Shown here: positions 30,227 through 30,352 of the stretch, one piece after another
Layout: each line of letters begins with the position of its first letter
How positions within the stretch are numbered: position 1 is the first letter of the stretch
Virus record (IMG/VR): IMGVR_UViG_3300044856_000216
Span: 1 to 64,000 of that record
Direction: 5' to 3' (one strand)
Source of the DNA: a virus
Length of the DNA: 64,000 nucleotides
The notes under the pieces: model-generated
What the model saw: only the letters and a program-made list of their open reading frames with translations
What the model was told of the DNA's origin: nothing
Databases searched by the model: none
Translations under genes and position numbers: made by a program

Positions 30227-30352
30227 GGAAGTTATGAGTTCTAAAAACACTATCGCTCTACCGACTGAGCTACATCCACATTTTTGTGAATGACAGGATT
30301 CGAACCTGTGACAAATAGTTCCCCAATTTTAGAAGGAAGAACCCATATAGCC
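30227..30352 (-). ncRNA. Covarying stem-loop RNA module, unit 1, carrying an inside-out tRNA body (YrlA/Y-RNA-like)
   Basis: GGCUAU-AUGGGUUCU-UCCUUCU-AAAAUUGGGGA-[permuted tRNA]-GUUUUU-AGAACUCAU-AACUUCC. Starts 14 nt after the stop of the TerD-like gene. Confidence 0.7.
30249..30319 (-). ncRNA. Circularly permuted tRNA-like domain (no anticodon loop, capped acceptor stem)
   Basis: Minus strand reads ACUAU UUGUC ACAGG-UUCGAAU-CCUGU CAUUCAC A AAAAU GUGGAUG UA GCUC-AGUCGGUA-GAGC G AUAGU. The acceptor (7 bp, one G-U), D, T and anticodon stems all pair, but the 3' half precedes the 5' half. Confidence 0.75.

What the first reader, a model, noticed from the sequence alone, without database searches (positions are those of the whole stretch)
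30227..30352. Inside-out (circularly permuted) tRNA body embedded in one module: a YrlA/Y-RNA-like tRNA mimic in a phage
The insert of unit 1 is a complete tRNA body written in permuted order:
- ACUAU (positions 39-43), then UUGUC (variable loop)
- ACAGG-UUCGAAU-CCUGU (T arm)
- CAUUCAC (acceptor 3' strand) plus A, then an AAAAU linker
- GUGGAUG (acceptor 5' strand), then UA
- GCUC-AGUCGGUA-GAGC (D arm), then G, then AUAGU (positions 27-31)

All four helices pair, and the canonical U8, G18G19, G26 and T-loop residues are present. The acceptor stem is capped by a loop. The anticodon loop is replaced by the conserved module stem.

This is the same topology as the tRNA-like domain of bacterial YrlA-type Y RNAs, which are encoded next to rsr (Ro60) genes. 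Here, however, the neighbouring protein is not an obvious Ro60/TROVE-vWA protein, and the stem flanks differ from the Ro-binding helix as I remember it.

Possible roles are a decoy or scaffold for tRNA-binding enzymes or for tRNA-targeting host defences. A more speculative alternative is a true permuted pre-tRNA. Joining ...AUAGU-GU to GGGGA-ACUAU... would create a 7-nt loop GUGGGGA (anticodon GGG, G37).
Basis: partly seen in the sequence, partly recalled or inferred. Interest (0 to 1): 0.88.

Follow-up and report, generated by a model that had tools for sequence, protein, structure and literature searches.

The report
tRNA mimic grafted onto stalk RNA
The sequence really is a complete tRNA body written inside-out, and it sits on one of eight repeated small structured RNAs flanking a gene for a previously uncharacterised protein; this RNA and protein travel together across many phages and bacteria, which suggests an undescribed RNA-protein particle resembling, but unrelated to, the Ro60/Y-RNA particle.

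Summary
Observation confirmed. On the minus strand, 30227-30352 is one structured RNA module. Its apical part (30249-30319) is a circularly permuted tRNA body, in the order T arm, closed 7-bp acceptor hairpin, D arm.

- ARAGORN finds no tRNA natively, but calls a canonical tRNA once the halves are swapped.
- Twenty-seven distinct homologous bodies exist in related loci, and all four arms covary.

The topology is that of YrlA, but this is not a YrlA/Ro60 system:
- the Rfam score is 37 against a gathering score of 69;
- there is no Ro-binding motif;
- no TROVE protein is encoded in the window.

The module is one of eight paralogues, four on each side of a 706-aa protein. That protein has a novel helical domain plus a TerD domain. 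All modules share a conserved stalk: GG/CC helix, CUAU/RAUUU internal loop, 9-bp helix, then UCCUUCU.

The RNA-protein pair recurs in:
- 77 of 79 protein-anchored viral loci (264 model hits, all on the gene strand), usually inside phage tRNA arrays;
- 75 of 80 bacterial loci, including Paenibacillus and Priestia;
- the cultured phages Weasels2 and XacN1.

No Rfam family matches the stalk, and I found no literature on it. My best reading is a Y-RNA-like particle with a non-Ro partner, in which the tRNA mimic is an exchangeable adaptor. RNA-protein binding and function are inferred, not shown.

The parts
30222..30357 (-). Module d1 (the finding). Outer helix CAUUAGG/CCUAAUG, internal loop CUAU/AACUU, 9-bp inner helix AUGGGUUCU/AGAACUCAU, conserved UCCUUCU, and an 88-nt apical insert.
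   Evidence: Sequence; MFE fold; python module scan; partial hit of model R1 at 30298-30360.
30249..30319 (-). Permuted tRNA-like body. Order: anticodon-stem 3' strand, variable loop, T arm, 7-bp acceptor hairpin capped by AAAAAU, U8-A9, D arm, G26, anticodon-stem 5' strand.
   Evidence: Covariation across 23 homologues.
30140..30214 (-). Module d2, with a short apical loop of 20 nt.
   Evidence: R1 49.4 bits.
30056..30139 (-). Module d3.
   Evidence: R1 51.7 bits.
29960..30047 (-). Module d4, the last before the next ORF (29690-29923).
   Evidence: R1 52.8 bits.
30366..32486 (-). Gene for the 706-aa protein (MNEILL...). Residues ~1-440 form a helical domain with no fold relative in the PDB; the C-terminal part is a TerD-like beta-sandwich. 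This is the conserved partner of the modules.
32499..32585 (-). Module u4, the 'leader copy'. It ends about 5 nt before the AAGGAG ribosome-binding site of the 706-aa gene. Its inner stem GGCGAUAGU/ACUAUCGCC is conserved among close relatives.
   Evidence: R1 50.7 bits.
32584..32694 (-). Module u3, with a 67-nt hairpin insert that is not tRNA-like.
   Evidence: partial R1 hit at 32654-32699.
32704..32790 (-). Module u2.
   Evidence: R1 56.4 bits.
32794..32887 (-). Module u1.
   Evidence: R1 46.1 bits.
32942..33799 (-). Thg1-like (tRNA-His guanylyltransferase family) gene. It is context only: adjacent in close relatives and in L151, not across the family.
   Evidence: Pfam Thg1 6.8e-28; PHROG 4717; tblastn survey.

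Best explanation
The element is the apical domain of one member (d1) of a family of eight paralogous 'stalk' RNAs. The family is encoded on both sides of, and on the same strand as, a gene for a 706-aa protein made of a novel helical domain plus a TerD domain.

Every module has the same handle:
- a short outer helix ending in GG/CC;
- an asymmetric internal loop, CUAU opposite RAUUU;
- an inner helix of exactly 9 bp whose sequence is free to vary;
- the invariant single-stranded UCCUUCU at the start of the apical loop.

What sits on top of the handle is exchangeable: an open loop, a hairpin, or a complete tRNA body joined through its anticodon stem.

I propose that the handle is the binding site of the adjacent protein. 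The leader copy just upstream of the protein's ribosome-binding site would let the protein repress its own translation. The apical domain would be an adaptor that decides what the particle meets.

The tRNA-shaped adaptor presents the tRNA elbow and a 7-bp acceptor helix but has no anticodon and no free ends. It would therefore dock factors that recognise tRNA shape, such as RNase P, TruB/Dus, the CCA-adding enzyme, Thg1-like enzymes or the ribosome. By analogy with M. smegmatis YrlA, RNase P may open it in the capping loop.

In phages the locus usually lies inside the tRNA gene array, so the particle most likely acts on tRNA handling: quality control, repair, or protection against host attack on tRNAs.

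Shown: the RNA structures, their covariation, and the genomic coupling with the protein. Inferred: RNA-protein binding, autoregulation, RNase P cleavage and the tRNA-related role.
For: 1. Structure. Eight copies lie in the window, all on the minus strand, where 0.02 are expected by chance; the covariance model finds the same eight. On 64 distinct modules the outer helix, which my scanner did not select for, is 80.8% paired with double changes at 6 of 7 pairs. For example, pair 8/55 is AU 25, CG 17, UA 15. The overall covariation score is 0.862 against 0.191 in shuffles and <= 0.24 in slid controls. Frequent G-U pairs fit RNA transcribed from this strand.

2. Coupling to the protein, found from the RNA side. 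A motif-only scan of viral contigs recovered loci that encode homologues of the 706-aa protein down to 30% identity.

3. Coupling, found from the protein side. Of 79 viral loci anchored on the protein (37-99% identity), 77 carry modules. There are 264 model hits at E <= 0.01, and all 264 are on the gene strand. Of 80 bacterial loci, 75 carry 1-5 modules on the gene strand. These include chromosomes of Paenibacillus, Brevibacillus, Priestia megaterium and Niallia, and MAGs assigned to Pyrinomonadaceae, Chloroflexaceae and the cyanobacterium Waterburya.

4. Not merely a 5' leader. Modules lie downstream of the gene in the window, in Niallia and Heyndrickxia and in phage Weasels2. Arrays reach 7 copies over 1.5 kb (L191).

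5. Motif variants change together within a genome. All six modules of L217 have UACUUCU, and all four of Weasels2 have UACUUC plus GCUCACC. This is as expected if one genome-encoded factor reads them.

6. The tRNA graft is a recurrent option on different modules: d1 in the window, upstream unit 3 in L001, and two per locus in L138, L146 and L191.

7. tRNA context. The gene and modules sit inside phage tRNA arrays, for example 10 tRNAs in L144 and 12 in L149. In Weasels2 there are 5 tRNAs upstream and RtcB 3 kb downstream.

8. Precedent. M. smegmatis YrlA, which has a 7-bp acceptor stem, is cut by RNase P and receives CCA (PMC4201824).
Against: - No direct evidence that the protein binds RNA. 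TerD domains are not known RNA binders, and the helical domain has no characterised relative.
- There are no expression data, so the modules could be parts of mRNA untranslated regions rather than stable small RNAs.
- In many bacterial chromosomes the modules lie only upstream of the gene, which also fits a purely cis-regulatory leader.
- Bacterial loci show no conserved neighbouring genes that would point to a pathway.
- Thg1 adjacency is limited to close relatives.
- My scanner required at least 8 of 9 inner-stem pairs, so the inner-helix statistics are partly by construction. The outer helix and the tRNA arms are not affected.
Confidence: 0.6

Rival explanations
1. Cis-regulatory leader elements. 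The modules would be protein- or ligand-responsive structures in the mRNA of the TerD-domain gene, controlling its transcription or translation. The phage arrays would be duplications of that operator.
For: - One copy lies about 85-120 nt upstream of the start codon in most loci.
- In P. megaterium a strong promoter-like site, TTTACA-17-TG-n-TACAAT, ends 6 nt before the module.
- In Paenibacillus L234 a degenerate third copy lies between a Shine-Dalgarno-like GAGAGGAGG and the ATG.
Against: - Four modules follow the stop codon in the window.
- In Niallia, Heyndrickxia and Weasels2 the modules are only downstream of the gene.
- Some copies lie 1-2 kb from the gene (L183, L191, L246).
- Free variation of the apical loop, and a grafted complete tRNA body, are not features of a ligand pocket.
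- This reading is compatible with the main explanation for the leader copy only.
Confidence: 0.15
2. RNA-processing or punctuation signals. The stalks would be cleavage or stabiliser sites (RNase III type, like the T7 intergenic hairpins with an internal loop) that cut polycistronic tRNA/mRNA transcripts. The tRNA-like copy would add an RNase P site.
For: - The modules are intergenic, tandem and on the same strand as the genes.
- They are interspersed with tRNA genes.
- The helix-internal loop-helix shape resembles phage RNase III sites (from general knowledge, not tested here).
Against: - A generic processing signal would not track one particular gene through 77 of 79 viral and 75 of 80 bacterial loci.
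- It would not occur as a single copy beside that gene in chromosomes of several bacterial phyla.
- It does not occur elsewhere in this 64-kb window.
Confidence: 0.1
3. A true permuted pre-tRNA gene. RNase P and RNase Z would open the capping loop, the stalk would be excised, and the ends would be ligated to make a functional tRNA, as in Cyanidioschyzon merolae.
For: - The body is complete, with a 7-bp acceptor stem.
- The flanks often resemble loop remnants (..U after the 5' strand..GA before the 3' strand).
- RtcB is encoded 3 kb away in Weasels2.
Against: - No bulge-helix-bulge motif at the junction (by inspection).
- The U33 position is U in only about half of 23 bodies.
- No conserved anticodon-like triplet, and no CCA.
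- The identical stalk mostly carries non-tRNA inserts.
- The body matches no particular tRNA: best score 28 of 65 against 338 tRNAs from the loci.
- The stalk is conserved far more strongly than an excised spacer would be.
Confidence: 0.05
4. A bona fide YrlA RNA of a Ro60 (Rsr) system whose Ro60 gene lies outside the window.
For: YrlA is the only Rfam family that aligns. YrlA RNAs are known in phages (PMC4201824).
Against: - All hits are below the gathering score: 30-39 bits against 69.
- The middle helix of the YrlA model is not matched and the GNCGAA motif is absent.
- No TROVE domain in 52 of the 54 window ORFs of at least 120 aa.
- The conserved neighbour is a different protein in every one of about 160 loci.
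Confidence: 0.03
5. A decayed tandem tRNA duplication or an assembly artefact: the T arm of one tRNA followed by the D arm of the next.
For: Chen et al. warn that dimeric tRNAs can score as YrlA.
Against: - The two 'acceptor' strands pair with each other across a 6-nt loop.
- The outer anticodon-stem strands pair with each other.
- Twenty-seven distinct versions from independent assemblies keep all four helices through compensatory changes.
Confidence: 0.01

Closest known systems
YrlA-type bacterial Y RNAs with Ro60/Rsr (Rfam RF02553; Chen et al. 2014, PMC4201824)
   Same: - Modular ncRNA: a basal stem presumed to bind the protein encoded next door, plus an apical tRNA-like domain in the same permuted order (T arm, closed acceptor hairpin, D arm).
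- Several paralogous RNAs per locus, only some of them tRNA-like (compare YrlA and YrlB).
- Present in both bacteria and phages.
- Some loci are linked to RNA-repair genes (RtcB in Weasels2).
   Different: - The basal stem has a different conserved sequence and shape: GG/CC helix, CUAU/RAUUU loop, 9 bp, then UCCUUCU. There is no GNCGAA motif.
- The partner protein is a helical+TerD protein with no TROVE ring and no vWA domain.
- Arrays reach eight copies.
- The Rfam score is about half the gathering score.
[quoted passage not shown]
   Same: A 7-bp acceptor-like helix stacked on a T arm and capped by a short loop. This is the feature Chen et al. link to RNase P cleavage.
   Different: Cleavage has not been tested here, and the loop is only 6 nt.
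Circularly permuted tRNA genes of Cyanidioschyzon merolae (from general knowledge)
   Same: The 3' half is encoded upstream of the 5' half, and the acceptor ends are joined by a short linker.
   Different: - Those are matured through a bulge-helix-bulge junction, circularisation and RNase P/Z into real tRNAs.
- Here there is no such junction and no conserved anticodon loop.
- The same stalk usually carries no tRNA at all.
Autoregulatory operators in mRNA leaders that mimic the RNA target of the encoded protein (ribosomal-protein operons, T4 RegA and gp32; from general knowledge)
   Same: One copy of the RNA motif sits immediately upstream of the ribosome-binding site of the gene for the presumed binding protein.
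   Different: Regulation has not been shown. The other seven copies are not in the leader.
TerD-family proteins of tellurite-resistance (ter) operons (PDB 2qz7, 2kxt)
   Same: The C-terminal ~190 residues have the TerD fold: Foldseek E = 2.7e-5, TM 0.72 on the target. TerD-type acidic motifs are present, with invariant D489, D491, H521-S522-G523-D524, E538 and D541.
   Different: - A 440-residue helical domain precedes it.
- There is no ter operon context.
- NCBIfam places it nearest to the MXAN_6230/SCO0854 RING-domain family, but below that family's cut-off and without the RING domain.

Membership tests
YrlA / bacterial Y RNA (RF02553) | Reaches the Rfam gathering score (69 bits). | tested here: not met
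   37.2 bits in the window. 39.0, 33.3 and 29.6 bits for homologues in L217, L143 and L220. Nothing at the gathering threshold.
YrlA / bacterial Y RNA (RF02553) | tRNA-like domain in the order T arm, acceptor-like hairpin, D arm, closed by an anticodon-stem analogue. | tested here: met
YrlA / bacterial Y RNA (RF02553) | Ro60-binding module with the conserved GNCGAAN0-1G motif or helix (PMC4201824). | tested here: not met
   The motif is absent from the d1 stalk (sequence). The middle helix of the Rfam model is unmatched, marked v in the NC line of the alignment.
YrlA / bacterial Y RNA (RF02553) | Encoded next to an rsr/Ro60 (TROVE domain) gene. | tested here: not met
   The neighbour has no TROVE or vWA domain by Pfam, either alone or across 63 family members. 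Foldseek against the PDB finds only TerD and no Ro60. No TROVE in 52 of the 54 window ORFs of at least 120 aa. The rest of the genome is outside the window.
YrlA / bacterial Y RNA (RF02553) | Bound by Ro60 in vivo; carries tRNA modifications (TruB, DusA). | not testable with these tools
   Needs immunoprecipitation and modification mapping.
Canonical tRNA gene | Contiguous cloverleaf with an anticodon loop and free acceptor ends. | tested here: not met
   ARAGORN finds 0 genes in the window. It is positive only after artificial un-permutation.
Permuted pre-tRNA gene (C. merolae type) | A bulge-helix-bulge processing motif at the junction, and flanks that rebuild a 7-nt anticodon loop with U33. 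| tested here: not met
   The junction is a 9-bp helix plus a 4/5-nt internal loop. The U33 position is U in about half of 23 homologues. No mature product could be assayed.
Stalk-RNA / helical+TerD protein pair (family defined here) | Outer helix ending GG/CC, CUAU/RAUUU internal loop, 9-bp inner helix, UCCUUCU (or UACUUCU) opening the apical loop. | tested here: met
   d1 and seven other window copies. Covariation on 64 modules.
Stalk-RNA / helical+TerD protein pair (family defined here) | Lies on the same strand as, and within about 2 kb of, a gene of the 700-aa helical+TerD family. | tested here: met
   The window gene is at 30366-32486. 77 of 79 viral loci, with 264 of 264 hits on the gene strand. 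75 of 80 genome loci. Weasels2 and XacN1.
Stalk-RNA / helical+TerD protein pair (family defined here) | Physical RNA-protein complex. | not testable with these tools
   Inferred from co-occurrence only.

The most novel reading that the evidence does not exclude
The helical+TerD protein and its stalk RNAs form an ancient ribonucleoprotein family that has not been described. It would be found across several bacterial phyla and in large phages, and would have arrived independently at the Ro60/Y-RNA design: a protein-binding stem plus exchangeable adaptor domains, including a permuted tRNA mimic. Phages would have expanded it into arrays inside their tRNA gene clusters in order to act on tRNA metabolism or on host anti-tRNA defences.
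Probability: 0.45. Interest if true: 0.9.

Novelty: new variant of a known kind. Interest (0 to 1): 0.8.

Why it matters
Ro60 with its Y RNAs is the only well-established case I know of in which a protein uses a family of modular small RNAs, some shaped like tRNA, as adaptors. What the tRNA-like module binds is still unknown.

A second, unrelated protein family that carries the same kind of RNA would show that 'stem handle plus tRNA-shaped adaptor' is a general solution rather than a peculiarity of Ro60. The new family has:
- a different handle;
- covariation support across bacterial phyla;
- arrays embedded in phage tRNA clusters.

It also offers new and tractable systems for asking what tRNA mimics without an anticodon are for: Rhodococcus phage Weasels2, Xanthomonas phage XacN1, Priestia megaterium and Paenibacillus.

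Finally, it assigns a first concrete lead, RNA association, to a large protein family of unknown function. That family has more than 1500 clusters at 50% identity with E < 1e-30.

Tried and rejected
- **Ro60 hypothesis for the neighbouring protein.** Pfam on the protein and on 63 family members gave no TROVE or vWA. PDB sequence searches gave nothing, or TerD at E = 2.3. Two AlphaFold models (pLDDT 92-93) searched against the PDB found only TerD for the C-terminal part and nothing better than E = 0.14, TM <= 0.24 for the helical domain. Rejected.
- **Known defence system.** PADLOC gave no hit.
- **Known RNA family for the basic stalk.** Rfam at gathering thresholds on the window, in E-value mode on the locus, and on eight other loci including bacterial chromosomes: none.
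- **Literature searches.** I searched for TerD with Y RNA or tRNA-like, YrlA with phage, structured RNA with TerD, SCO0854/MXAN_6230, TerD domain, and permuted tRNA or tRNA mimic with phage, and read five papers. Nothing describes this pair. One search was badly phrased and returned only chemistry papers.
- **Which tRNA does the body mimic?** The best score is 28 of 65 against 338 tRNAs from the loci, so no clear identity.
- **Thg1 as a core partner.** It is adjacent only in close relatives plus L151. Rejected as a core component.
- **Conserved neighbours in bacterial chromosomes.** None found; the neighbours are GntR-type, GNAT, transposase, LacI-type and ABC1-kinase genes and similar.
- **Promoters and terminators around the window modules.** Consensus matches are at chance level in this AT-rich DNA.
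- **Nucleotide similarity to GenBank phages.** Only weak Thg1 matches.
- **UCCUUCU as a helix strand.** It can pair with a GGGA just 5' of most tRNA-like bodies, but no complement is conserved in the basic modules. I therefore treat it as single-stranded in the basic module.
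Full report
**1. The observation**

The finding lies on the minus strand.

- The minimum-energy fold of 30215-30360(-) is a three-armed tRNA-like junction whose 'anticodon stem' continues into a long closing stalk. Its energy is -42.4 kcal/mol, z = -3.44, and none of 200 shuffles folds as well.
- ARAGORN finds no tRNA in the whole 64-kb window.
- When I swap the two halves and supply any 7-nt loop, ARAGORN calls a canonical tRNA with a 7-bp acceptor stem, a 4-bp D stem, a 5-bp anticodon stem and a 5-bp T stem.
- Rfam finds nothing at gathering thresholds. In E-value mode the only meaningful match is YrlA (RF02553): 37.2 bits against a gathering score of 69, E = 6e-6 for a 2.5-kb search. 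The alignment covers the T arm, the capped acceptor hairpin and the D arm, but not the model's middle helix.

**2. The element is one of eight modules around one gene**

The motif GGCTAT-N8-TTCCTTCT occurs seven times with at most one mismatch, always on the minus strand, where 0.02 matches are expected. A looser scan and a covariance model find eight copies. By the model's hit spans they lie at:
- upstream of the ORF: 32794-32887, 32704-32790, 32654-32699 (a partial hit on the ~32584-32694 module) and 32499-32585;
- downstream of it: 30298-30360 (a partial hit on the 30222-30357 module), 30140-30214, 30056-30139 and 29960-30047.

The fourth upstream copy lies inside the mechanical 743-codon ORF. 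It ends just before AAGGAG-N8-ATG, so the real start is the ATG at 32486 and the protein has 706 aa, beginning MNEILL.

Each module has the same parts:
- a short outer helix ending in GG/CC;
- an internal loop, CUAU opposite RAUUU;
- a 9-bp inner helix whose sequence differs in every copy;
- UCCUUCU;
- a variable insert.

The finding's coordinates run exactly from the GG to the CC of downstream unit 1. Its 88-nt insert holds the tRNA body.

**3. Evidence that the module is a real RNA structure**

From related loci I collected 64 distinct modules and aligned them with the inserts trimmed (A2).
- My scanner demanded at least 8 of 9 inner-stem pairs, so the 98% pairing of that helix is partly by construction.
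- The outer helix was not selected for. It is 80.8% paired, with compensatory double changes at 6 of 7 pairs. For example, columns 7/56 are GC 18, AU 17, UA 17, CG 7, with 5 unpaired.
- For the whole structure the covariation score is 0.862, against 0.191 +/- 0.014 in shuffles (0 of 500 reach it) and <= 0.24 when the partners are slid.
- G-U pairs are common. This fits RNA transcribed from the gene strand and does not fit a DNA-level signal.

**4. The tRNA graft recurs and covaries**

- In L002/L003 (protein 81% identical) downstream unit 1 has only a 26-nt loop.
- In L001 (79% identical) a different permuted tRNA body sits in upstream unit 3.
- Across all loci I found 27 distinct inserts of 84-98 nt that ARAGORN recognises as a tRNA when the insert is doubled, so that the two halves appear in canonical order. 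It made no call on 1000 shuffled doubled inserts.
- On an alignment of 23 of them (A4), 92% of cells in the four arms are paired against 69% in shuffles. There are 102 double-change cells against 31. The covariation score is 0.659 against 0.22, and slid controls give <= 0.16. Every arm has compensatory pairs.
- Within the window's own clade the acceptor hairpin changes from CAUUCAC/GUGGAUG to CUUCCCC/GGGGAUG.

This excludes an assembly artefact or a decayed tRNA dimer. The latter is the false positive that Chen et al. warn about for YrlA searches.

**5. The partner protein**

- The 706-aa protein has no Pfam hit of its own. It matches PHROG 33734, of unknown function.
- It has thousands of homologues, some labelled 'TerD family protein' from Lachnospiraceae and Enterocloster bolteae. 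There are 1512 clusters at 50% identity with E < 1e-30.
- Eight of 63 diverse members hit Pfam TerD (best 1.4e-9); none hits TROVE or vWA.
- AlphaFold2 gives a confident model (pLDDT 92.3, pTM 0.90). Foldseek against the PDB finds only TerD (2qz7_A, E = 2.7e-5) for the C-terminal ~190 residues.
- The helical domain (residues 1-440), modelled separately at pLDDT 92.8, has no PDB match better than E = 0.14 or TM 0.24, and no Ro60 match.
- NCBIfam places the protein nearest to the 'MXAN_6230/SCO0854 family RING domain-containing protein' (E = 5e-131, 438 bits, below the 600-bit cut-off), without the RING part.
- PADLOC finds nothing.

The protein is therefore not Ro60. No TROVE protein appears among the 52 window ORFs of at least 120 aa that I scanned, out of 54. 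The window is a phage-type replication and nucleotide-metabolism region. It encodes NrdD with an intein, an NAD-dependent ligase, a RecD-like helicase, Pol III alpha, RecJ, SSB and methylases.

**6. RNA and protein travel together**

Starting from the RNA:
- A scan of viral contigs with the bare 14-base motif returned many chance singletons.
- The loci with clustered, properly paired modules encode homologues of the protein at 98% down to 30% identity.

Starting from the protein:
- There are 79 viral loci with homologues of 37-99% identity. The covariance model gives 264 hits at E <= 0.01. All 264 are on the gene strand, and they fall in 77 of the 79 loci.
- There are 80 loci from bacterial genomes. 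In 75 of them 1-5 modules lie on the gene strand.
- These include chromosomes of cultured Paenibacillus, Brevibacillus, Priestia megaterium, Niallia, Heyndrickxia, Neobacillus and Tepidibacter. They also include MAGs of Pyrinomonadaceae, Chloroflexaceae, a cyanobacterium, Saprospiraceae and others. The stems covary between genera.
- In cultured isolates' chromosomes the modules are short, with 14-26-nt loops. They usually lie within 200 nt upstream of the gene, but in Niallia and Heyndrickxia they lie immediately downstream.
- In P. megaterium a strong promoter-like site ends 6 nt before the module.
- No Rfam family matches these modules, and I found no paper describing them.

**7. Phage context and cultured phages**

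- In most phage relatives the gene and its modules are embedded in the tRNA gene array on the same strand. L144 has 7 tRNAs upstream and 3 downstream, L149 has 12, and L143 also has a tmRNA.
- The window's own clade has no tRNA within the stretches held. It does keep a Thg1-like gene one gene away.
- Among GenBank phages, distant homologues (24-31% identity) occur in Rhodococcus phage Weasels2, Xanthomonas phages XacN1 and Xoo-sp13, Mycobacterium phage WXIN and others. All are annotated as hypothetical.
- In Weasels2 the gene (gp266) follows five tRNA genes, and RtcB lies 3 kb downstream. The unannotated 390-nt gap after the gene holds four modules with a variant handle (UACUUC..., GCUCACC). 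The third carries a permuted tRNA body that is ARAGORN-positive.
- XacN1 has two modules upstream of ORF396, scoring 26.6 and 15.2 bits with the model.
- Motif variants are uniform within a genome (all six in L217, all four in Weasels2). This is what one expects if a genome-encoded reader co-evolves with them.

**8. How it most likely works**

Shown:
- a conserved two-helix handle with fixed 9-bp spacing between two invariant single-stranded elements;
- an exchangeable apical domain;
- tight genomic coupling to one protein family, across phyla and in both directions of search;
- a copy abutting the gene's ribosome-binding site;
- placement in tRNA arrays in phages.

Inferred:
- the protein binds the handle;
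- the leader copy gives autoregulation;
- the apical domain is an adaptor.

The tRNA-shaped adaptor exposes the elbow and a 7-bp acceptor helix but has no anticodon and no ends. It cannot be a decoy for anticodon nucleases. It could dock shape-reading factors such as RNase P, TruB, Dus, the CCA-adding enzyme, Thg1-like enzymes or the ribosome. M. smegmatis YrlA, which alone among the tested YrlAs has a 7-bp acceptor stem, is cut by RNase P and receives CCA. The same may happen here in the AAAAAU loop.

I put 0.6 on this Y-RNA-like particle reading. The rivals are:
- pure cis-regulatory leaders, 0.15: contradicted by the downstream and distant copies;
- generic processing signals, 0.1: contradicted by fidelity to one gene;
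- a true permuted pre-tRNA, 0.05: no bulge-helix-bulge junction, U33 not conserved, and the same stalk usually lacks a tRNA;
- genuine YrlA/Ro60, 0.03;
- artefact, 0.01.

**9. Comparison with what is known, and novelty**

- It works like YrlA. It is not a YrlA: three of the four testable defining features fail (gathering score, Ro-binding motif, rsr neighbour).
- It is neither a tRNA gene nor a C. merolae-type permuted tRNA gene.
- I file the finding as a new variant of a known kind, namely a modular protein-partnered ncRNA with a permuted tRNA mimic.
- The pairing with a helical+TerD protein, and the stalk motif itself, appear undescribed. If binding is confirmed, they would amount to a new ribonucleoprotein family.

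**Caveats**
- There are no expression or binding data.
- The inner-stem statistics are partly circular.
- The literature library is incomplete.
- The rest of the phage genome lies outside the window.

Noticed in passing
window 2642-6004 (-): The anaerobic ribonucleotide reductase NrdD (1120 aa) is interrupted by an intein that carries a LAGLIDADG/Hom_end homing endonuclease.
   Followed up: no
window 58323-59552 (-): An IS605 OrfB/TnpB-like gene (OrfB_IS605 plus Cas12f1-like TNB domain) lies in the phage-like region. I did not look for its guide (omega) RNA.
   Followed up: no
L143 1364-1677: A phage-encoded tmRNA (Rfam 111.7 bits) lies inside the tRNA array, just upstream of the helical+TerD gene and its modules.
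   Followed up: no
L191 915-989; L152 1957-2033: L191 has a tRNA with a CUA anticodon, which is amber-suppressor-like and which ARAGORN calls 'Pyl'. L152 has a tRNA with a 4-nt anticodon 'gaga'. Both lie in the phage tRNA arrays next to the locus.
   Followed up: no
L234 (Paenibacillus sp. MBLB4367 chromosome) ~2400-2500: A third, degenerate module lies between a strong Shine-Dalgarno-like GAGAGGAGG on its 5' side and the ATG 12 nt beyond its 3' end. Folding of the module would bring the two to about 9-10 nt apart, a split ribosome-binding site. This was seen by eye.
   Followed up: partly
L218, L221, L222, L223 (Niallia and Heyndrickxia chromosomes) ~4587-4700: In these cultured Bacillaceae the modules lie immediately downstream of the gene rather than upstream. 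This argues against a purely 5'-leader role.
   Followed up: partly
window 30249-30254 / 30315-30319 versus L149 2145-2218: The anticodon-stem analogue of the window body (GAUAGU/ACUAU) is identical to the anticodon stem of a phage tRNA-His(GUG) in L149. The rest of the body differs. A Thg1-like (tRNA-His guanylyltransferase family) gene is one gene away in the window. This may be coincidence.
   Followed up: partly
window 30320-30324 with 30333-30337, and homologues: In most tRNA-like modules a GGGA or GGGGA just 5' of the body can pair with UCCU(U) of the invariant UCCUUCU, forming a small third hairpin at the junction. Basic modules have no such complement. UCCUUCU also resembles the pyrimidine-rich anti-Shine-Dalgarno end of Firmicute 16S rRNA; that resemblance is from memory and untested.
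   Followed up: partly
window 12510-13013 and 54837-55343 (-): There are two YpsA/SLOG-family genes, plus several radical-SAM genes (2100-2639, 41800-42531, 47144-48034), in the same phage-like region.
   Followed up: no
L002 ~5523-5700: Directly after the tRNA-Met that follows the fourth downstream module there are two further T-arm-like segments (GGTTCGACTCC twice) that ARAGORN does not call as tRNAs. They may be tRNA fragments or another tRNA-like RNA.
   Followed up: no
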